Notes under the pieces: model-generated
What the model saw: only the letters and a program-made list of their open reading frames with translations
Database searches by the model: none
What the model was told of the DNA's origin: nothing
Shown: positions 627 to 59,462 of the stretch, piece by piece
How positions within the stretch are numbered: position 1 is the stretch's first letter
Layout: the number at the start of each line of letters is the position of its first letter
Program-made: the position numbers and the translations under genes
From: an uncultured virus (IMG/VR IMGVR_UViG_3300025011_000036)
Lineage: Duplodnaviria > Heunggongvirae > Uroviricota > Caudoviricetes
DNA: 64,000 nt
Direction: 5' to 3' (one strand)
Virus record (IMG/VR): IMGVR_UViG_3300025011_000036

Positions 627-1232
627 GTGATGAAATTGGACGAAAAGTCTACAAAGTATTTTCAAAGGGATGTCAATGCGGTCATTATGCCAGTTATGTT
701 TAGTAGGGAAAGACTGGGTAACGGGAGGGAATACATCACGGCTACCGACCCTGATACCGATAGGATTCTCTATGGATTCTTTAATAAATATCGTCCTCCT
801 AAACCAGCCAAGGTTATCGAACTTGGTGTAGAGGGAGAACTGGATTCTGAGAAAAAGCCAAAGAAGAAGAGTTCCGGAAACAAGCTCACCTATGCCAAGT
901 TGTACATCAGTGAGATACACAAGTACCCAAAGGATAAATTGAGTTATGAGTACGCTGGGATGTGCATGCACTTGGCAACCTATATCGAGTGGCATGATGG
1001 AAGTCTAGTCGTCGGTACTGGCAAGCGAAGGAAGCTAATGGAACGCAAGGACATATCAAAGGAGTTGGGGGTTAGTGATTCCACAACCAGGAGATTCGTT
1101 GCCAAGCTCGAAGAGTTGAAGTTAATCTCCAAGGTTGGGGATTCCTATAAGATGATTGGTAAGTTATTCGGCAAGGGAAAGGAGATAAATGTTACTCCTG
1201 ATATTCCAATGAAGGGAGATGTTGTGCCTTGA
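627..1232 (+). CDS. HTH DNA-binding protein, RepL/MarR-like C-terminus
   Basis: C-terminal wHTH 'RKDISKELGVSDSTTRRFVAKLEELKLI'. Confidence 0.6.
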   Translation: MMKLDEKSTKYFQRDVNAVIMPVMFSRERLGNGREYITATDPDTDRILYGFFNKYRPPKPAKVIELGVEGELDSEKKPKKKSSGNKLTYAKLYISEIHKYPKDKLSYEYAGMCMHLATYIEWHDGSLVVGTGKRRKLMERKDISKELGVSDSTTRRFVAKLEELKLISKVGDSYKMIGKLFGKGKEINVTPDIPMKGDVVP

Positions 1233-1414: not shown

Positions 1415-2146
1415 TTGGCTTTAGATATGCCGATTAGAAGAGAAAAGATTACAACGTATGAACAGGCGTTTAGATTAATTCATGTTTCGGTGACAGGAAA
1501 AGCAATGTTTATAGTTAAGGATTTAGAGAAACAGGGACACAATGAGAAGAGTATTTCTTTTGCAATATGGAAGTCGTCGGAAAAACTATGCGGATTAAGA
1601 AATGACCCAAGGTTTGAGAGTATTTTTATTAACGAGATAAGAAAGTGGTCATGGCCTAGCGGTGATCCTCGATGGAAAGAGTTTCACAAGAAAAAAGAAG
1701 AAGAACTTAAAGCCATTGAATTAGATAAAATTGAAAAAAAGAGAAGAAATCAGGAACAATCTTACAAAAAGAGATATCCTGGTTTTATTTATTTTATACA
1801 GGGTGAATCCGGTGGTTCCGTAAAGATTGGATATGCCGCAGATATTACAAAGCGGATAAAGACATTACAGACAGGTTTCCCAGAAACTCTAATTATCGTT
1901 AAATCATTTCCGGGGAACATAAGCGATGAGGGCGGATTCCATGAAGAGTTTAAGGATTTTCGCATAAGGGGCGAGTGGTTTGATCCCATAGTATTGGAGA
2001 GTGCCGATATGGTTGTTGGTAAGATCCAAAAGGATAAGCAGTTTTGCTGCAAAAAGTGTGGTGGAGAGGAGTTAATGAATATCTTCGATGAAATGGGATT
2101 AGTTGGACGCGCTTGTGTGAGGTGTGGATTATTGGTGAAAGCTTAA
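1415..2146 (+). CDS. GIY-YIG family nuclease (T5orf172/MUG113-like)
   Basis: 'GFIYFIQ...VKIGYA..ITKRIKTLQTG...RIRGEWF'. Confidence 0.8.
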   Translation: MALDMPIRREKITTYEQAFRLIHVSVTGKAMFIVKDLEKQGHNEKSISFAIWKSSEKLCGLRNDPRFESIFINEIRKWSWPSGDPRWKEFHKKKEEELKAIELDKIEKKRRNQEQSYKKRYPGFIYFIQGESGGSVKIGYAADITKRIKTLQTGFPETLIIVKSFPGNISDEGGFHEEFKDFRIRGEWFDPIVLESADMVVGKIQKDKQFCCKKCGGEELMNIFDEMGLVGRACVRCGLLVKA

Positions 2147-2217
2147 TCGTTCCTCCCTTAACCCCTTCTTCCAAACTTAAACCCTTGATTACAAGCCCAA
2201 TTTCAGGAGGAAATAGC

Positions 2218-2391
2218 ATGTCTGAAAACCGAGCATGTAAAGTATTTGATCCAAAAGACCCTACTTACGGCAAAACCAACTGCGCTTCATGCCTCGTATT
2301 CAACGGAACAACCTGCAAAGACGAACCCTATGTGATGGCAATACATGAACCCGCAACAATTATCCATACCGGATGGTGTAACCATGGCTAA
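2218..2391 (+). CDS. Small Cys-rich hypothetical protein
   Basis: AGGAGG SD before ATG 2218. Confidence 0.55.
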   Translation: MSENRACKVFDPKDPTYGKTNCASCLVFNGTTCKDEPYVMAIHEPATIIHTGWCNHG

Positions 2392-2426
2392 TATAGATAT
2401 CTCTATTATTATTGGAGGTGATGCCA

Positions 2427-3940
2427 ATGCCCAACATTGATATACGCATAAGTGCTAAAGTGTTCAACAAGATATACATGCCATGCCTAGAGACTGATTT
2501 CCGCTATGAAGTATACTATGGTGGAGCCTAGCTGGATCGGGAAAGTCGGTATTTATAGCGCAAAAGTACATCTATAAGATGCTCAAGCAAAAGATGAATC
2601 TGCTAGTCATACGGCAAACTGGTGATTCTAATAGAGATTCGACGTTCGCCTTATTAAAGCAAGTTATAAACGAGTGGAAGGTTGATCACCTGTTTGTTGT
2701 CCGCGAGTCTGATCTTCGCATAACATGTAAGGCAAACGGTAACGCAATGTTATTTAAGGGGTTAGACGATGTAGAACGTTTGAAGTCCATAACCTTCTCT
2801 AAGGGCGAGTTGACTGATGTGTGGATAGAAGAGGCTAGTGAGGTTGAAGAGTCAAGTTTTAACCAATTAGACATTAGGCTTCGTGGAGGAAAACAGAAGA
2901 AACAGGTCATTATCTCCTTCAATCCCATTAACATAACTCATTGGCTCAAGAGGTTTGTCGATGATAAGCAAGAGAATAAGATGTCACTACATACCACCTA
3001 CCATGATAATAAGTTCATTGACGACGAATACAAGGCTCTCTTGGAGTCGTACAAAGAAAAGGACCCTTATTATTATGACGTATATGCTTTAGGTCAGTGG
3101 GGCGTTTTAGGCAAAACCATCTTCAATGCTCACAAGGTCAATGAACGTCTAACCCTAGTCCGAGACAGATACCCGGTCAAGCAAGGTTCCTTCACATATG
3201 ATTATGTGGGAGAGAGAATAGTAGAGTCATCTATTCGTTGGGTAGAGTCGGACGATGGATATATAACAATCTACGAGGATGTCATACCAGGCCTAACCTA
3301 TGGCATTGGTGGAGACACATCAGGAGATGGATCAGACTACTTCATAGGTCAGGTTATAGACAATACATCAGGTAAGCAGGTAGCGGTCCTTAGGCATCAA
3401 TTTGATGAGGACTTATACGCAAAGCAAATGTACTGCTTGGGTAAATACTTCAACTGGGCACTCATTGGTATTGAGACAAACTACAGCACATACCCGGTCA
3501 AAGAACTTCAACGCCTTGACTACCCAGAACAGTATATTCGAGTAGTAGAGGACACCATAAGCCAAACAACACAAAAGAGGTATGGATTCCAAACAACTAA
3601 GCTAACAAGACCAATTATTATTGCCGATTTAGCCTGCATCGTTCGAGAGCAAACGGAGCTTATAAACGATCCTGAAACCCTGAACGAAATGCTAACCTTT
3701 GTTCGTAACAAAAAAGGCAGACCCGAAGCAATGCCTGGTGAGCATGACGACCTTATCATTGCCTTAGCAATAGCCTACTACATCAGGGAACAAGGTATTA
3801 TTAACGGCACGATCGTAGCGGCGGTAGCAAGGAATACGAATACAACAGTTAATCATGACTACCAAAACGGAAAACATTGGTCGGAGATAGAGGATGAGCA
3901 GGACGAAGAAGGAAGTTTCATGAAAGGTTGGGATTCCTAG
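2427..3940 (+). CDS. terL: Terminase large subunit (PBSX-type), interrupted by a 5-nt stop-containing insert in Walker A
   Basis: GGAGGTG SD + ATG 2427. Frame 1 reads ...YEVYYGGA* (TAG 2529-2531). Frame 2 resumes GSGKSVFIAQK at 2534 and continues into Walker B 'DVWIEEA' and nuclease 'HDDLIIALA'. Confidence 0.92.
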
Positions 3941-4114
3941 ATGGCATATGCAGAACCTTTTAATCGTTTATGGATGAATGACATTTACTATAAACCAAGG
4001 AGAGTAGAACTAAGTGAAAAAGAGTTGAGAGATTTAAGGTTATTAAGATCAATGGGAGTACGGGAAGCTAGTCAAAAACTGGCTGACTATTCCTTTAATA
4101 AGTATCTAAGTTAA
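3941..4114 (+). CDS. Small hypothetical protein (57 aa)
   Basis: ATG immediately after terL stop; fills the gap. Confidence 0.45.
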   Translation: MAYAEPFNRLWMNDIYYKPRRVELSEKELRDLRLLRSMGVREASQKLADYSFNKYLS

Positions 4115-4127
4115 TAGGAGGTCCATC

Positions 4128-4403
4128 ATGCCAATACCCCTAACAATCACAATATGCTTAACCTTAACCCTTGCGATAACAGCAGGGTCTTTTTATTGGG
4201 GTAAATACATCGGCATAACCCTAAAAACTTCTGCCGATAACCAAACTCGTATCAACCTAGCCACAAAGCAAATCGAGGAAATGGCTGAAGCGATCGAACA
4301 GCTTAACTATCAACTCGATAATGACAAAAGGGAAAAAGCAGGCTATCAACCACAGAAGCAAGGATGGGACCCGTCTAATCCTCTTAGCTCGGAAAGAAGG
4401 TGA
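4128..4403 (+). CDS. Membrane-anchored coiled-coil hypothetical protein
   Basis: N-terminal hydrophobic helix; AGGAGG SD. Confidence 0.6.
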   Translation: MPIPLTITICLTLTLAITAGSFYWGKYIGITLKTSADNQTRINLATKQIEEMAEAIEQLNYQLDNDKREKAGYQPQKQGWDPSNPLSSERR

Positions 4404-36006: not shown

Positions 36007-36750
36007 ATGAGGACGATTGATTATCCAACCAAAACTCAGGAAGAATATGACCAAAGCTGGCTTGAGCGCAGGAAATTAAGAACGGATAACAAAGCCCTTC
36101 ACAGTTCTAAAGAGAGCGTTAAGGATGATGAATTATCCACAGAAATACTTAATTACTGGAACTCAAAAGGAATAATTGTTCATCGTAAATACTCAAAAAG
36201 AACGCCACTTATACTAAGAAAAATAATTAAGGATTACTCTAAGGAAGAGATATTAAAAGCAATTGATAATTATGTAACAGTTATCAACGATAATAAATAT
36301 TTGTTTGATTACAAATGGAGCCTTGAAACATTTTTGCAAAAACCAAACGCTTTTCCTGATTTTGTAGATGGAGGAAGCAAGTGGTTAAGTTATCTGGCGT
36401 CTATAACCATAAAAGACAAACCTAGAAAAGAGCAACCGACTTTAATTATTGGACCGAATGATAAGGTTATAATTGCCAGTAGCGACTTTCATTCTATTGA
36501 AGAATCATACTTAGCGATGATTGACGCTTTTAACCGTATGCCATACGGTGAATACTTACAGACTTCTCATTGGTTACATTTTAAAGGAGAAGCATTGAAA
36601 GATGCAGGTTTTAAATGCCGAACGTGTTGCAGTAAAGAAACTGTCCTGAATGTACATCACAATAATTATAGTAATCGCGGTCGAGAGACATTTAATGACG
36701 TTGTTGTGTTATGCGAAGTATGCCACGCCAAATTTCATAATAAAGAATAA
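36007..36750 (+). CDS. Phage initiator-like helical domain fused to HNH nuclease domain
   Basis: 'EILNYWNSK...EEILKAIDNY...SLETFL' + 'CRTC...LNVHH..Y...DVVVLCEVCHAKFH'. Confidence 0.65.
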   Translation: MRTIDYPTKTQEEYDQSWLERRKLRTDNKALHSSKESVKDDELSTEILNYWNSKGIIVHRKYSKRTPLILRKIIKDYSKEEILKAIDNYVTVINDNKYLFDYKWSLETFLQKPNAFPDFVDGGSKWLSYLASITIKDKPRKEQPTLIIGPNDKVIIASSDFHSIEESYLAMIDAFNRMPYGEYLQTSHWLHFKGEALKDAGFKCRTCCSKETVLNVHHNNYSNRGRETFNDVVVLCEVCHAKFHNKE

Positions 36751-40944: not shown

Positions 40945-42277
40945 TTAAATAAAAAAAATATCAAAATGCTTTTCATTGTCGATCTTAATTTCTTTTATTA
41001 TTCCTCTCCATAGAGTTCTCTTTTCTGTTTTTTTCAAAGTAATATAAATACTCCTGAAATCACTCTGAAGGAAATCCCTAAGTCCCTGTACATCAATTTT
41101 TTCAGATGGAGTCTCGTTATTCTTTAGTTGATCAGTGTACATATCGAAATCCTTTTTATACTCATCAATGTCAATGAGATTGTTTATATAAAGCTCCTTT
41201 AGCCTAGTTAGTTTATTTTTTATTACAGATTTATTAACCTTAGGTTTCTTTTGTTGCTCAACTTTGATTTCATAGTCAACGATATACGAATTTATTTCTT
41301 CTTCAATGTGATTGATTAAATATTCTTCAACGTAGTTCTCGCTAACGGCATATTTACGAGTACACAAACGTCTTTGAACATATTGATAACAACGATAATA
41401 TTGATATTCTTTATATCCATTATGTGTCATCGCTCCGGATAATCGGCTACCGCATTCAGTACAGGTAAGTAAACCGGAAAAGATATAAATTCTGTCGGTT
41501 TGATTTCTACGATAAGTCTTTCTTTTTAATATTTCTTGAACATTATCAAACTGCTTAATTGAAATAAGTGGCTCACAAAAATCTTTAACGTTTTGGAATT
41601 CTCCTTTGTATAGTGAGTTAGAAAGTACCCTTACAACGGAAGAGTAAGATAAATTAACGTCATATTTATCTCGTATATAGGTGATAGTACCCCTTCGGCT
41701 TTGGTTTAGCTCAAAATGATTAAATATTTCTATAACTAACCAAGTATTATCATTGTCATGCACCACATGTTTTTTCTCGATCTTCAGTCCAATTGGGATA
41801 GAACCGGTAATAGCTTCTTTTCGTTTTACTTTATTTTCGAAAACAAATTTGATGCGTTCGCTTGTTCTGTCAGATTCATCTTGAGCCACTGATAGCATGA
41901 TATTAATATGTAGCCTACCACTGGCCGTTGTGGTGTCGTAATTCTCAAGGATAGCCCTCCATCCCACGTTATGCTTATCTAATGTTTCTTGGATTTTATA
42001 ATAATCCTTAACACTTCTAAACCAACGATCCATTTTCAGGAAAATGATCAAGTCAAGTTTTCCGGCCATAACATCGTCTATCATCCTCATAAATTCTTTA
42101 CGGCTACTGTACGCCTTCCTGGCCGTTTGTCCTTCATCTACATATGTATCTACTATTAACATGTCATGCTCTTGCGCATACTTCGTGAGAGCTTCTTTTT
42201 GTGACTGGATGGAATATCCGTGATGAGCCTGTTCCAATGTGCTGTCAAACCCGAATGTATATAGCTACTCGCATCAT
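40945..42277 (-). CDS. Large serine recombinase (integrase), interrupted by 4-nt TGAC insert at the catalytic motif
   Basis: MMRVAIYIRV*; after 4 nt, STLEQAHHGYSIQSQ. Resolvase 'KMDRWFR', recombinase domain, Zn ribbon 'CTECG..YYRC' and coiled coil are intact. Confidence 0.9.
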
Positions 42278-42930
42278 TCAGTGATCATCCCCTTTTTTAT
42301 TCTATGGTGCTCCATTGCATGTTCTCTATGCGACTGGAACAACCTCAAATTTTCTATTTCATTATTTACTTTGTCTTCATCAATATGATGGACAATTTCA
42401 TTATCAGTTAAGTATCTCCCAAGTAATTCCTCCATAACTAGCCTATGCTGGTAAACGTAACCACGATTATCACAATGAGGGTGACTGGGCATTTTAATTT
42501 CTACATAGCCATTTCCCTTAATATGTTTACCTCCTTTCCAGTTTCCGCTATTTTCACCTTTTCTACCGTGTGAAGCCTTTTCTGCCTCTGGCATTACTCT
42601 TCCCTTAGACCAATGGCACCCCCTGGTTTTAATTGTTGCTTTTAGCCTTTCACTTTGTTCTCTCTTGTATTCATCAGTGAATCTCAGGCCATACATCCCA
42701 TTCTTTTCCCCTGATCTGTCATAAATCTTTAACGCTTCTTCCAGACTGCGCGTTTCGATATTATATTTTTTTAAATGACTATGAATGGTCATGGCGGTCA
42801 CATTAAGTAATTTTGCAATATTCGTACATCCTAATTTTTCGTTTGTGTAAAAATTGTTCAAGGTTTCCTTTAGATCTCTTCCTTCGTCCATAAACCTAAT
42901 TTCTAATTTTGATACAGCCATAATATACAT
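42274..42930 (-). CDS. HNH homing endonuclease (NUMOD3-like + HNH_3)
   Basis: 'GEKNGMYG', 'NWKGG', 'YVYQHRLVME..LGRYL...EIVHHIDEDKVNN.IENL'. Confidence 0.88.
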   Translation of the reverse strand: MYIMAVSKLEIRFMDEGRDLKETLNNFYTNEKLGCTNIAKLLNVTAMTIHSHLKKYNIETRSLEEALKIYDRSGEKNGMYGLRFTDEYKREQSERLKATIKTRGCHWSKGRVMPEAEKASHGRKGENSGNWKGGKHIKGNGYVEIKMPSHPHCDNRGYVYQHRLVMEELLGRYLTDNEIVHHIDEDKVNNEIENLRLFQSHREHAMEHHRIKKGMITE

Positions 42931-43891: not shown

Positions 43892-44677
43892 TTGGTAATT
43901 ACATCAAAGCTAGTTCAGGGTGGAAAATTCAGGGTATTAGAAAGCGGAGTTATATACAAAATTAAAGACGGCAAGGAAACATTGGCGAACATTGTTATGA
44001 CCACTAGGCTTAAAAAATATGGGATTGTAAGTTTTACCGAAAATTCCAAGCAGAAACATTATTATGTCCATAGATTAGTTGCCGAAGCATTTTGCGAAAA
44101 CCCAAACAACTATCAACAGGTTAACCATTTAGACGGGAACACGCTAAACAATATTCCAAGTAATTTGGAATGGTGTACCCCAAGTCAAAATATTATCCAT
44201 GCATACAAAACCGGATTAATAGACCGAATCAAATATACCGAACCATGCCAAGTATGTGGTCAGCCAACTCACTCAAAGGATGGAGTGTGTTCAATATGTA
44301 ATCGAGAGATGTTGAGTCAAGCACATACAGACGGTGCTTTGTCAGAGTTAAGAGAAAGGCTATCGATTATAAATCCAGAGTCACTGAACCAAAGACAAGC
44401 TGAAATCTTATCACTTAGACTAGAAGGTAAGACGCTTCAAGAAATAGGCGATAAATTCAAAATGACCAGGCAAGGTGTGGATCAAATCATAGGGGGCTTG
44501 CTAGTAAGAAGTATCTCTCCGATTAAAAAAAATCACTTAATTGGGAAAGAGCGTAAAAGACTGTTAGCAAAGATATCAAAGAAAGAGGGCAAGGTTAAGG
44601 CGGCACTCGACATGGTTGAGGAATTAAAAAGGGAAATAAGATCACTTAAGGGATTACTAGCTGAATTTCCGGGATAA
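43892..44677 (+). CDS. HNH endonuclease with C-terminal sigma70-region-4-like HTH
   Basis: 'YVHRLVAEAF...VNHLDGNTLNN..SNLEWCTPSQN' + 'KTLQEIGDKFKMTRQGVDQI'. Confidence 0.85.
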   Translation: MVITSKLVQGGKFRVLESGVIYKIKDGKETLANIVMTTRLKKYGIVSFTENSKQKHYYVHRLVAEAFCENPNNYQQVNHLDGNTLNNIPSNLEWCTPSQNIIHAYKTGLIDRIKYTEPCQVCGQPTHSKDGVCSICNREMLSQAHTDGALSELRERLSIINPESLNQRQAEILSLRLEGKTLQEIGDKFKMTRQGVDQIIGGLLVRSISPIKKNHLIGKERKRLLAKISKKEGKVKAALDMVEELKREIRSLKGLLAEFPG

Positions 44678-58928: not shown

Positions 58929-59462
58929 ATGGGTAATACGGAAAGAAGTAGAAACATTTGGGATGGAATTCAAAGACGATGCAACCCTGATAATTGGAAC
59001 GGTAGTCTTTTGAACTACAAAGGGTGTTGGTGTTGTGATGAATGGTTATCGTATAAGAACTTTAAAATATGGTATGAAGAAAATACGTACAACATTGACG
59101 GAGAGAACTTAGACATAGACAAGGACATTATAGTTCGCGGAAATAAACTATATAGCCCGGATACATGCGTACTTGTCCCACACGGTATAAATTGTATTTT
59201 TAGAAAACGTACACATCCTAAGTTTAATCACCCCGTAGGAGTTGTGATTGACCGTAAGACGGGTAAGTATAGAGCTAGGTGTAGAGATGGGAAGCTTATT
59301 TTGTGGGGAACTATATTTCACAATACGCCTCACGAGGCTTTTGTGGAATATAAGGAATTAAAAGAATCCTTAATCAAGAAACACGCAGAACTCTACAAGC
59401 CATTAATACCGAAAGTTGTATATGAAGCAATGATTAATTATCAAGTAAGTATCTATGATTAA
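58929..59462 (+). CDS. HNH-like endonuclease
   Basis: 'W.GIQRRC...C.EW..YKNF..W...DIDKDI...NKLYSPDTC.LVP..IN'. Confidence 0.7.
   Translation: MGNTERSRNIWDGIQRRCNPDNWNGSLLNYKGCWCCDEWLSYKNFKIWYEENTYNIDGENLDIDKDIIVRGNKLYSPDTCVLVPHGINCIFRKRTHPKFNHPVGVVIDRKTGKYRARCRDGKLILWGTIFHNTPHEAFVEYKELKESLIKKHAELYKPLIPKVVYEAMINYQVSIYD

What the first reader, a model, noticed from the sequence alone, without database searches (positions are those of the whole stretch)
2520..2548. Terminase Walker A split by a 5-nt stop-containing insert with matched take-off and landing Ala codons: candidate ribosome hop
Seen: terL starts at 2427 with a strong SD and reads ...TAC TAT GGT GGA GCC TAG CT GGA TCG GGA AAG TCG. 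Skipping 5 nt restores the canonical YYGGAGSGKS and a 502-aa protein. The downstream frame has a stop at 2507 and no start codon before the motif, so an intact ATPase cannot be made by normal decoding. The codon before the stop (GCC, 2526) and the triplet before the resume point (GCT, 2531) are both Ala, and an SD-like GGTGGAG lies just 5'. The rest of the gene shows no decay. Known: T4 gene 60 bypassing uses a take-off codon, an adjacent stop and a matched landing codon, and a short bypass has been proposed in a Streptomyces phage terL. Inference: a minimal stop-hop controls TerL dose and/or protects this conserved site from a homing nuclease.
Basis: partly seen in the sequence, partly recalled or inferred. 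Interest (0 to 1): 0.9.

Follow-up and report, generated by a model that had tools for sequence, protein, structure and literature searches.

The report
Stop-led 5-base gap in terminase gene
The only DNA-packaging motor gene of this phage is split inside its ATP-binding loop by five extra bases that begin with a stop codon, and the same kind of break recurs in many related phages, so ribosomes most likely hop over it, a very rare way of reading a gene.

Summary
terL reads GGT GGA GCC TAG CT GGA TCG GGA AAG TCG. Five bases (2529-2533) separate a 34-codon head from a 468-codon body in another frame.

It is not an error. Eight contigs carry the identical site, as do assemblies laid from 4 studies. 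All 30 substitutions in the body fall on third codon positions.

It is not unique. My scans found 20 site variants in 13 Terminase_3 clades, with inserts of 2, 5, 6 or 8 bases at the same codon junction. Every one places a stop codon directly after the Ala or Gly codon. In 16 of 20 the triplet before the resume point is synonymous with that codon. Skipping the insert restores the P-loop spacing seen in 110 of 112 intact relatives.

Best reading (about 0.7): a programmed forward hop of peptidyl-tRNA over the stop, GCC to GCU.

In a sister lineage the insert is the exact 3' edge of an 832-base block that carries an HNH endonuclease gene. This recalls T4 MobA and gene 60. For the window's own lineage that link is weak.

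No experiment or RNA data exists. Published terL bypassing (phiHau3) uses UUA and other sites. This scan has noted a 16-base analogue in another genome.

The parts
2414..2419 (+). Shine-Dalgarno GGAGGT, 7 nt before the terL start codon
   Evidence: Sequence.
2427..2528 (+). terL head: 34 codons (MPNID...RYEVYYGGA). It encodes the conserved N-terminus, the strand before the P-loop and the first three P-loop residues.
   Evidence: It is 68-70% identical to the N-terminus of intact P0004. It shows no differences among 8 contigs. Equivalent mini-ORFs in other interrupted pairs have dN/dS of 0.06-0.35.
2520..2525 (+). GGT GGA: G-rich, SD-like Gly-Gly codons directly 5' of the take-off codon
   Evidence: Predicted anti-SD duplex -6.0 kcal/mol, not stronger than in intact relatives.
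2526..2528 (+). Proposed take-off codon GCC (Ala)
   Evidence: It is the last sense codon of the head. The equivalent codon is Ala or Gly in all 20 site variants.
2529..2533 (+). The 5-nt insert or coding gap TAGCT. TAG 2529-2531 is the in-frame stop. GCT 2531-2533 is the proposed landing triplet and overlaps the stop by its G.
   Evidence: It is absent from intact relatives. An identical TAGCT is kept in L212 and L207, which are only 75% identical in DNA.
2534..3940 (+). terL body: 468 codons from the resume codon GGA (GSGKS...) to the stop TAG. It holds the Terminase_3 ATPase and nuclease parts.
   Evidence: All 30 of 30 substitutions seen in 4 runs are at third codon positions. Against L005 there are 23 synonymous and 2 non-synonymous codon differences.
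1415..2146 (+). 243-aa ORF with a T5orf172/MUG113 domain: a possible free-standing endonuclease gene 280 nt upstream of terL
   Evidence: Pfam 1.6e-07 and 4e-09. There is a weak PHROG 'homing endonuclease' match at 8e-05. The ORF is absent from L001, L002 and L003, which carry the same terL and insert, so its link to the insert is uncertain.
2113..2391 (+). 92-aa ORF of unknown function between the T5orf172 ORF and terL
   Evidence: No Pfam or PHROG match. Its C-terminal 68 aa are 94% identical to L002:2678-2884.
627..1232 (+). 201-aa ORF with a weak HTH / small-terminase-like match: possible terS
   Evidence: Pfam matches are all below their cut-offs. The position is upstream of terL.

Best explanation
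The window holds the single large-terminase gene (Terminase_3 family) of a roughly 65-kb temperate phage. Five extra bases, TAGCT, sit after the third codon of its Walker A loop. They put a UAG stop in frame and shift the rest of the gene to another frame.

Most likely, a ribosome carrying peptidyl-tRNA-Ala on GCC (2526-2528) meets UAG in its A site. Some ribosomes do not terminate. Instead the tRNA lets go, the mRNA slips forward 5 nt, and the tRNA re-pairs with GCU (2531-2533). Decoding then resumes at GGA 2534. The result is a 502-residue TerL with the canonical loop GGAGSGKS.

Shown here:
- The insert is real, fixed and old.
- Both gene halves are under purifying selection.
- The architecture is recurrent.
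- Only skipping the insert restores the family's invariant spacing.

Inferred:
- The hop itself and its efficiency.
- Any help from the G-rich Gly codons just upstream.

Why the insert is there is also inferred, and is best supported in sister lineages. The conserved P-loop DNA, about 100 nt into terL, would be the target of free-standing homing endonucleases that sit between terS and terL. The insert breaks that target, so it travels with the endonuclease gene as its immunity. It can outlive the endonuclease. This is the logic of T4 MobA and the gene 60 gap.
For: **The insert is real and fixed**
- It is identical in 8 of 68 loci examined. It is unchanged in contigs of 4 runs from 4 studies. 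18 runs in 9 studies hold the stretch.
- A 65,756-bp contig carries terL at both ends (L008 and L024), which points to a complete genome.

**The gene is in use**
- All 30 of 30 substitution places between 2560 and 3928 are third codon positions.
- Synonymous versus non-synonymous codon differences from the window are 23/2, 13/0, 7/0, 4/2 and 2/0.
- Upstream mini-ORFs in pairs that are both interrupted have dN/dS of 0.06-0.35.
- There is only one terL in the window.

**The break recurs**
- There are 20 site variants in 13 clades, all at the same codon junction.
- The tree needs at least 7 changes of state.
- Among the 67 loci, only one lineage (L068) has a frame break elsewhere in terL.

**A stop always follows the take-off codon**
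- All 20 TerL hits of the two scans that left that triplet free had a stop there.

**The landing triplet matches**
- It is synonymous with the take-off codon in 16 of 20 variants, where about 1 in 4 is expected.
- Its third base varies (GCT, GCC, GCG, GCA) while its second base is kept.

**Spacing**
- R[YFI]-to-GK is 11 residues in 110 of 112 intact homologues.
- L036, L228 and L231 have in-frame stops with 6-nt inserts. No frameshift can repair those.

**Endonuclease link**
- L048 equals L034 plus 832 nt that carry an HNH gene (phrog_3377, 1e-52; NUMOD3). Identity jumps from about 56-70% to 94-100% exactly at the insert.
- L075 is 100% identical to L048 for 1600 nt upstream, then shows 15 mismatches in the first 100 nt after the insert.
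- The window against L005, L007 and L024 shows 0 mismatches in 2500 nt upstream and 1-4 per 100 nt downstream.
- Homologous HNH genes lie before terL in L212 and L236.
Against: - There is no direct evidence of translation across the gap. No RNA run is listed. All reads available were assembled contigs, which hide minority genotypes.
- No conserved RNA structure flanks the site (z from -1.64 to +1.21 in 16 contexts).
- The SD-like tract is no stronger than in intact genes (mean -7.9 against -8.4 kcal/mol, p = 0.39). No dedicated stimulator was found, so efficiency could be very low.
- 4 of 20 variants have non-synonymous landing triplets (GTT twice, GTA, ACA). Strict re-pairing is therefore not universal.
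- A -1 shift would still give a pattern that fits [AG]xxxxGKS.
- Lineages are not fully independent, so the 16 of 20 count overstates the number of events.
- In the window's own lineage the endonuclease link is weak. Contigs with the same terL and insert lack the T5orf172 gene. 9 of 13 interrupted clades show no endonuclease gene next to terL.
Confidence: 0.7

Rival explanations
1. A -1 (or +2) ribosomal frameshift occurs at or before the stop, without skipping. The ribosome slips back one base near GCC-TAG and reads CTA GCT GGA. The result is a TerL with two extra residues (Leu-Ala) in the loop.
For: The downstream frame is the -1 frame and is open from 2510. The product ALAGSGKS would still fit the loose Walker A pattern [AG]xxxxGK[ST]. 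A stop in the A site can stimulate shifts in either direction (established knowledge). L019 has only a 2-nt insert.
Against: There is no slippery X XXY YYZ heptamer and no downstream structure. 110 of 112 intact relatives keep exactly 11 residues between R[YFI] and GK, so a 2-residue insertion is never seen. A -1 shift does not explain why the triplet before the resume codon is synonymous with the take-off codon in 16 of 20 variants. It cannot repair the three in-frame 6-nt cases. The 8-nt cases would gain 3 residues.
Confidence: 0.1
2. The gene is dead. The phage is defective, a satellite, or a decaying prophage that borrows another phage's terminase, and the insert is an ordinary inactivating indel.
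For: A stop-containing frameshift in an essential motif is what a pseudogene looks like. The phage has an integrase and could persist as a prophage. No expression data exist.
Against: All 30 of 30 population substitutions in the body are at third codon positions. Synonymous to non-synonymous ratios such as 23/2 hold in genomes that all carry the insert. The head ORF is conserved with dN/dS of 0.06-0.35 in interrupted pairs that have diverged to dS of about 1. The same junction is hit in 13 clades, always with a stop exactly at the junction. The rest of the gene has no other break.
Confidence: 0.07
3. The five bases are removed before translation. Either a minority of DNA molecules lacks them (reversible indel, recombination with a template), or the transcript is edited or processed.
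For: Only assembled contigs could be laid, and these drop rare variants. The site is a recombination boundary in several comparisons. One related contig (G001) ends 28 nt after the site.
Against: No repeat, homopolymer or known editing or splicing signal flanks the 5 nt. No Rfam family matched in 2000-4200. No contig in the 4 runs laid shows the insert-free form (no indel rows between 2407 and 2559). No known mechanism excises 5 nt precisely. This rival does not explain the stop codon and matched-codon rules.
Confidence: 0.08
4. The insert is a sequencing or assembly artefact.
For: Nothing beyond the general possibility.
Against: The sequence is identical in 8 contigs under 6 metagenome ids and in assemblies of 4 runs from 4 studies. 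Analogous inserts with other sequences occur in 12 further clades.
Confidence: 0.01

Closest known systems
T4 gene 60 translational bypass with the MobA homing endonuclease cassette (passages read in bioRxiv 10.1101/2022.08.31.505936, and in PMC5009743)
   Same: A take-off codon (Gly there; Ala or Gly here) is followed directly by a stop. A matched landing codon lies 5' of the resume codon. The non-coding insert sits in a highly conserved part of an essential phage gene. The insert lies at the edge of an HNH endonuclease cassette and is thought to block self-cleavage. Some relatives have lost the endonuclease but kept the gap.
   Different: The gap here is 5 nt (2-8 in relatives), not 50. I found no take-off stem-loop. 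No dedicated nascent-peptide signal is known. The host gene is terL, not a topoisomerase, and it is not split into two ORFs by the endonuclease gene. The inserts differ in sequence between clades. No experiment has been done.
UUA-led bypassing proposed in the terL of Streptomyces phage phiHau3 and two prophages (PMC10732093, sections 3.4 and 3.6 read)
   Same: Short non-coding blocks lie inside a large-terminase gene at highly conserved junctions. Frameshifting is disfavoured there because extra residues would be inserted. A landing codon and an internal SD were proposed.
   Different: There the A-site codon is the rare sense codon UUA, linked to host tRNA availability. The blocks are 7 and 10 nt, at other positions (after KGWG). 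Only 3 of 100 ter genes carried them, all in actinophages. Here the A-site codon is a stop, the gap is 5 nt, the site is the Walker A loop, and 13 clades of another TerL family are affected.
Synthetic 'stop-hops' and +5/+6 shifts in E. coli (Weiss et al. 1987, as described in passages and the reference list of PMC5009743)
   Same: [quoted passage not shown] The +5 and +6 distances are exactly those seen here.
   Different: Those were engineered, low-efficiency events. The review states that no natural in-frame stop-hop was known. Here the pattern is natural, conserved and lies in an essential gene.
prfB (RF2) +1 frameshift at a 'shifty stop' (established knowledge, recalled)
   Same: A stop codon in the A site, together with an SD-like G-rich element just upstream, promotes forward movement of the P-site tRNA.
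   Different: That shift is +1 onto an overlapping codon and is autoregulated by RF2. Here the move is +5 onto a codon that shares only one base with the stop, and no regulator is known.
Mitochondrial 'byp' elements of Magnusiomyces capitatus (mentioned in PMC5009743)
   Same: Many short inserts within coding sequence are made harmless at translation.
   Different: Those are 27-55-nt mobile elements in a mitochondrial genome with an unused codon in the A site (size recalled). Here the inserts are tiny and sit at one fixed codon junction of one phage gene.

Membership tests
Terminase_3 large terminase (TerL) | Match to the Pfam Terminase_3 ATPase domain | tested here: met
   PF04466 at 1.6e-49, residues 4-195 of P0002 on profile positions 7-200 of 201. 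PHROG terminase large subunit at 1.6e-54.
Terminase_3 large terminase (TerL) | Intact Walker A loop with the family's spacing in one reading frame | tested here: not met
   The loop is split between two frames by 5 nt. Spacing is canonical only if the 5 nt are skipped (110 of 112 intact relatives).
Programmed translational bypassing / hopping (gene 60 type) | Take-off codon followed at once by a stop or slow codon | tested here: met
   GCC then TAG. All 20 TerL hits of the free-triplet scans had a stop there.
Programmed translational bypassing / hopping (gene 60 type) | Landing codon cognate to the take-off tRNA directly 5' of the resume codon | tested here: met
   GCC to GCT in the window. 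16 of 20 variants across clades are synonymous.
Programmed translational bypassing / hopping (gene 60 type) | Protein product lacks residues from the gap and joins the two ORFs | not testable with these tools
   This needs mass spectrometry or a reporter. No RNA or proteome data were available.
Programmed translational bypassing / hopping (gene 60 type) | Take-off stem-loop or other mRNA structure that stimulates bypass | tested here: not met
   MFE z-scores range from -1.64 to +1.21 in 16 contexts, with no shared hairpin.
Programmed translational bypassing / hopping (gene 60 type) | Nascent-peptide stimulator | not tested
   The 34-residue head is conserved, but that is expected from its role in the ATPase fold. 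The two roles cannot be separated here.
UUA-led terL bypass (phiHau3 type) | Rare UUA codon in the A site | tested here: not met
   The A-site codon is TAG. Relatives have TAG, TAA or TGA.
-1 programmed ribosomal frameshift | Slippery heptamer X XXY YYZ plus a downstream structure | tested here: not met
   No such heptamer lies between 2510 and 2531. No structure was found.
Free-standing homing-endonuclease cassette with an immunity insert (MobA-like) | Endonuclease gene next to the interrupted gene and absent from uninterrupted sisters | tested here: inconclusive
   In the window a T5orf172-domain ORF lies 280 nt upstream. L001, L002 and L003 have the same terL and insert but lack it. The feature is met in L048 against L034. 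HNH genes also lie before terL in L212 and L236. None of 24 intact loci has a homing-type domain, and 1 has a PF01844 HNH.
Free-standing homing-endonuclease cassette with an immunity insert (MobA-like) | Sequence-identity break (co-conversion boundary) at the insert | tested here: met
   L048 against L034: identity jumps at the insert. L075 against L048. Window against L005, L007 and L024: 0 mismatches in 2500 nt upstream, and variation begins 26 nt downstream.
Free-standing homing-endonuclease cassette with an immunity insert (MobA-like) | The endonuclease cuts the uninterrupted site and not the interrupted one | not testable with these tools
   This needs a cleavage assay.

The most novel reading that the evidence does not exclude
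Stop-led micro-inserts of 2-8 nt at one codon junction of the terL Walker A loop are a widespread natural class of minimal translational bypass elements. They would be the first natural counterparts of the synthetic +5/+6 'stop-hops'. They arise and spread as the self-immunity part of homing-endonuclease cassettes that target the conserved P-loop DNA. The essential packaging motor of many uncultured phages would then be made only by ribosome hopping, and hop efficiency would set TerL dose.
Probability: 0.55. Interest if true: 0.9.

Novelty: new variant of a known kind. Interest (0 to 1): 0.87.

Why it matters
Programmed bypassing has rested on very few natural cases: T4 gene 60, yeast mitochondrial byps, and a candidate in phiHau3 terL. 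The field's review says that short-distance counterparts with matched landing codons have 'long been presumed'. It also says that no natural stop-hop was known (PMC5009743).

Here there is a compact 5-nt example that can be synthesised, with 20 natural sequence variants. Together these amount to a ready-made mutational series of take-off and landing pairs, stop identity and gap length. That makes the rules of short hops directly testable.

The finding also bears on genome annotation. Gene callers truncate these terL genes (P0003, P0024, P0046, P0079, P0094 and P0101 lack Walker A). Such phages may then be scored as defective.

If the endonuclease link holds, it shows that the gene 60 logic is a general evolutionary solution. 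In that logic a selfish nuclease is protected by an insert that the ribosome ignores.

Tried and rejected
- **Megablast** of window 2300-4000 against cultured phages found no match. By tblastn the best cultured relative is only 48% identical. No cultured, viable carrier could therefore be named.
- **The window's own assembly** is not held. I used the nearest record, G001, instead.
I fixed TAG to reach 14.
- **The genome-contig scan** fetched 80 of 92 stretches, and only L101 is a TerL case. Six other loci had long downstream ORFs. I judged them unrelated by inspection and did not run them through Pfam. The 12 unfetched stretches were not seen.
- **L091** (GGA TAG CC, a Terminase_6-type gene) was left out of all counts because its upstream frame does not look like a TerL head.
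- **The +4 scan** gave 0 TerL among 2 hits. The +2 scan found only L019's own contig.
- **No RNA holder is listed**. Only Logan contigs could be laid, so minority variants, transcript ends and expression could not be assessed.
- **RNA structure:** none was conserved. That script used mononucleotide shuffles.
- **SD-like strength:** no difference between interrupted and intact genes.
- **Other RNA checks:** no phage tRNA and no Rfam family in 2000-4200.
- **Internal initiation** of the body was rejected. There is no ATG, GTG or TTG between the upstream stop and the P-loop, and the first ATG (2579) lies after the P-loop.
- **Reassignment of TAG** was rejected. The frames still differ by 5 nt, and TAG ends 5 of 39 window ORFs, including terL itself.
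- **A second break in the L089 lineage** turned out to be TGA read as Trp.
- **Host** was not determined. 'Bacillota' is unverified.
- **Literature:** four searches found no report of a stop-led gap in a terL Walker A. Subscription journals and the phiHau3 paper's supplements were not searched.
Full report
**1.

One search shows ATG at 2427, preceded by GGAGGT at 2414-2419. It then shows ...TAC TAT GGT GGA GCC TAG CT GGA TCG GGA AAG TCG.
- The first frame gives 34 residues ending YEVYYGGA and then a stop.
- The frame that carries GSGKS is the +2/-1 frame. It has TGA at 2507-2509 and no ATG, GTG or TTG before the motif. It stays open for 468 codons, to TAG 3938-3940.
- The body is a Terminase_3 ATPase (Pfam 1.6e-49) whose match begins at profile position 7. 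Only the very start of the domain is missing from it.
- 34 + 468 = 502 residues, the length of the nearest intact relative P0004, which is 86% identical.
- The window is a temperate, podovirus-like phage genome. It has one terL, a portal, a capsid, internal virion proteins, a serine integrase and several HNH endonuclease ORFs.

**2. It is not an error and not a dead gene**

The window's own assembly is not held.
- The nearest record, G001, has the same letters across the site, although its upstream region differs.
- Of the 68 loci then in hand, 8 carry the identical site. These are 8 IMG/VR contigs under 6 metagenome ids. One of them is a 65,756-bp contig with terL at both ends.
- 18 public runs in 9 studies (groundwater, soil and sediment) hold the stretch. 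All are kept as contigs and none is on record as RNA.
- I laid 4 runs from 4 studies. No substitution or indel falls between 2407 and 2559.
- All 30 substitution places listed between 2560 and 3928 are third codon positions of the body's frame (arithmetic checked).
- Contig against contig, the body differs from the window by 23 synonymous and 2 non-synonymous codons (L005), 13/0 (L007), 7/0 (L024), 4/2 (L006) and 2/0 (L004). The 34-codon head shows no difference at all.

A gene that has carried a fixed frameshift while evolving like this is being translated in both parts.

**3. The break recurs at the same codon**

A tblastn of the intact N-terminus on the 67 related loci showed three more interrupted lineages:
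- L035, L039 and L048: GGT TAG GC GGC.
- L019: GCG TA GGT, a 2-nt insert.
- L036: GGT TAA GGA TCA, a 6-nt insert with an in-frame stop.

In those 67 loci, the only frame change elsewhere in terL is in L068.

Pattern scans then gave further cases.
- *Viral contigs, 5-nt form with TAG.* Of 27 stretches, 20 are TerL cases. They comprise 8 contigs of the window lineage, L070/L083/L086, L074, L075/L076/L077/L084, L085, L088, L089 and L093. One stretch is doubtful (L091) and 6 are unrelated.
- *Species-representative bacterial genomes.* Of 92 stretches, 80 were fetched, and 1 is a TerL case. This is L101, in a MAG labelled Candidatus Riflebacteria, with GCC TAG CC. The remainder serve as a picture of chance matches.
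- *Metagenome contigs, with TTY added to the pattern.* Of 23 stretches, 13 are TerL. New variants are L188 (GCC TAG CA), L195 (GCT TAG CG), L207 (GCC TAG CT GGT AGT) and L194.
- *6-nt form.* Of 6 stretches, 5 are TerL: GCG TAG GCT in 4 contigs and GCT TAA GCA in 1.
- *8-nt form.* All 5 stretches are TerL: GCC TGAATGTT, GCC TGAACGCC and GGT TGAAAGGC.
- *4-nt form.* Neither of 2 stretches is TerL.
- *2-nt form.* It found only L019's own contig.

In all I count 20 site variants in 13 TerL clades. All tested bodies are Terminase_3 plus Terminase_3C.

On a FastTree of 13 interrupted and 134 intact bodies, the interrupted rows are scattered. At least 7 changes of state are needed. Several interrupted rows sit on long branches, so that number is rough.

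**4. The rules of the architecture**

*(a) A stop always follows the last head codon.* I left that triplet free in two control scans.
- All 14 hits of the Ala scan were TerL, with TAG 12 times and TGA twice.
- 6 of the 8 hits of the Gly scan were TerL, all with TAG. The other 2 were unrelated.

*(b) The triplet just before the resume codon matches the last head codon.* It is synonymous in 16 of 20 variants. The first base was fixed as G by TAG or by my pattern in the 5-, 6- and 8-nt scans, so chance expectation is about one in four.
- Within clades the third base of that triplet drifts while the second is kept. L074, L101 and L195 have GCT, GCC and GCG, and L188 has GCA.
- The four exceptions are GTT (twice), GTA and ACA. 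All of these follow Ala codons.

*(c) Only skipping the insert restores the family's geometry.* In 110 of 112 intact homologues, R[YFI] and GK are exactly 11 residues apart. The loop reads GGAGSGKS in 84, GGGSSGKS in 13, GGSGSGKS in 7 and GGGGSGKS in 4.

*(d) The three 6-nt cases are in frame.* No frameshift can mend them.

*(e) The insert is old in some clades.* L212 and L207 are 75% identical in DNA, with dS of about 1 in the head. Both keep TAGCT.

*(f) The head mini-ORFs of interrupted pairs are under purifying selection.* dN/dS is 0.06-0.35.

**5. What I did not find**

- There is no conserved hairpin. MFE z-scores range from -1.64 to +1.21 in 16 contexts (mononucleotide shuffles).
- There is no excess SD-likeness over intact genes. 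The means are -7.9 and -8.4 kcal/mol, p = 0.39. The G-rich tract is simply the Gly-Gly codons.
- The window has no phage tRNA and no Rfam match in 2000-4200.
- TAG is a working stop in this genome. It ends 5 of 39 ORFs, including terL itself.

The only stimulators visible are therefore the stop itself, the cognate landing triplet, and the inherent G-rich codons directly 5' of the take-off codon. Hop efficiency cannot be guessed from sequence.

**6. Why there: a homing-endonuclease connection**

*L048 against L034.*
- L048 (interrupted) and L034 (intact) are 99.4% identical up to the terS stop.
- L048 then has 832 nt that L034 lacks. These encode an HNH endonuclease (phrog_3377 at 1e-52; Pfam NUMOD3).
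- The first 100 nt or so of terL are only about 56-70% identical.
- Exactly after the 5-nt insert, identity jumps to 94-100%.

*L075 against L048.* L075 carries the same cassette. It is 100% identical to L048 over 1600 nt upstream, right up to the insert. It then shows 15 mismatches in the next 100 nt, which resemble the intact L038/L040 type.

So the same block has entered at least two backgrounds. That block is the endonuclease gene, the terL head and the insert, and its 3' edge is the insert.

*Other lineages.* Homologous HNH_3/NUMOD endonucleases lie between terS and terL in L212 (5-nt insert) and L236 (8-nt insert). Both match phrog_59 and they are 46% identical to each other. The two terL ATPase domains are only 39% identical.

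*Controls.* Among 24 intact loci whose upstream ORFs I scanned, none has a homing-type domain. One (L021) has a PF01844 HNH.

*Limits.* 9 of 13 interrupted clades show no endonuclease gene beside terL.

*The window's own lineage.* Here the picture is mixed.
- A T5orf172/MUG113-domain ORF lies at 1415-2146. That this domain belongs to the GIY-YIG-like nucleases is recalled, not tested.
- Contigs L001, L002 and L003 have the same terL and insert, but an unrelated upstream region that lacks this ORF.
- Even so, the window against L005, L007 and L024 shows 0 mismatches in 2500 nt upstream of the insert and 1-4 per 100 nt downstream, starting 26 nt after it. The site is thus a recombination boundary here too.

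**7. Comparison with what is known**

*T4 gene 60 with MobA* is the closest parallel. It has a take-off codon, an adjacent stop, a matched landing codon and a gap that protects against the neighbouring HNH nuclease. Relatives have lost the nuclease but kept the gap (passages of bioRxiv 10.1101/2022.08.31.505936). The present case has a gap one tenth as long, no stem-loop and a different gene.

*In terL itself*, the only published candidate I found is phiHau3 and two Streptomyces prophages. It involves 7- and 10-nt blocks led by the rare codon UUA, at other conserved junctions, in 3 of 100 ter genes. A junction peptide was obtained in E. coli (PMC10732093, sections 3.4 and 3.6).

*Synthetic +5 and +6 stop-hops* are described in the review PMC5009743 (passages). 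That review states that natural stop-hops were not known and that shorter counterparts of gene 60 were long presumed.

Four literature searches found no report of a stop-led gap in a terL Walker A.

*This scan's own notes* hold an analogous report from another genome (e1-6089314). It describes a 16-nt stop-led gap in the Walker A of a giant phage's terL, with 5- and 8-nt versions in relatives. My scans found 5-, 6- and 8-nt versions independently in the Terminase_3 family. I did not examine that giant phage.

**8. Verdict**

The finding is real and its interpretation is supported by comparative evidence. I put about 0.7 on a forward hop over the stop, and about 0.55 on the wider reading that these are natural minimal bypass elements tied to homing-endonuclease cassettes.

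It is a new variant of a known kind, programmed translational bypassing. It is unusually well suited to experiment, because nature has supplied a series of variants.

The main weakness is the complete lack of direct evidence for the trans-frame protein.

Noticed in passing
L226:2150-2200; L194 about 1715-1725 (locus coordinates): The L089/L194/L209/L226 phage lineage appears to read TGA as Trp. The conserved LGxWG motif reads LGE-TGA-G in L226. L194 has TGA where L226 has TGG (ERSC-W-SD). Its terL also carries the 5-nt TAG insert.
   Followed up: partly
L051:2106-3001 (also L052, L053, L057-L059, L061-L063, L065 and L066, whose matches start at about residue 227): A roughly 900-nt insert with many stops interrupts terL inside the YxLGxWG motif. 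Rfam Intron_gpI matches L051:2671-2962 at E = 2.7e-05 (29.3 bits, below the gathering score of 50). It is probably a group I intron and so a second mobile-element hotspot in this terL family.
   Followed up: partly
L068:3435-3461: This distant relative (39% identity) changes frame at about residue 180-185 of terL. It is the only break away from the Walker A among the 67 loci. It could be a pseudogene or another recoding site.
   Followed up: no
window 36007-36750, 42274-42930 (-), 43892-44677, 58929-59462: Four ORFs match HNH endonuclease PHROGs. The genome is rich in free-standing endonuclease genes, apart from the T5orf172 ORF next to terL.
   Followed up: no
G001/L001 end, equal to window 2559; window 2560: The related 39,530-bp contig G001 ends 28 nt after the insert. 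That is exactly one base before the first polymorphic position (2560) seen among strains. It is probably an assembly-graph break at the start of the variable region.
   Followed up: no
window about 1-2190 against L001, L002 and L003: Contigs with 100% identical terL have an unrelated region upstream of about 330 nt before the insert. They carry a Terminase_2 terS and a phrog_31110 ORF in place of the window's 201-aa and T5orf172 ORFs. The packaging module is therefore mosaic within one phage population.
   Followed up: partly
proteins P0024, P0046, P0079 and P0101: Four further database clusters of close TerL homologues start just after the Walker A (for example P0046 begins VFVCQ...). They are probably gene calls truncated by the same kind of interruption. 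Their DNA could not be fetched.
   Followed up: no
L019:952-1524; L010:588-1175; L233:1775-2350 (-): Small serine recombinase / DNA invertase genes lie between terS and terL in three related phages, two interrupted and one intact.
   Followed up: no
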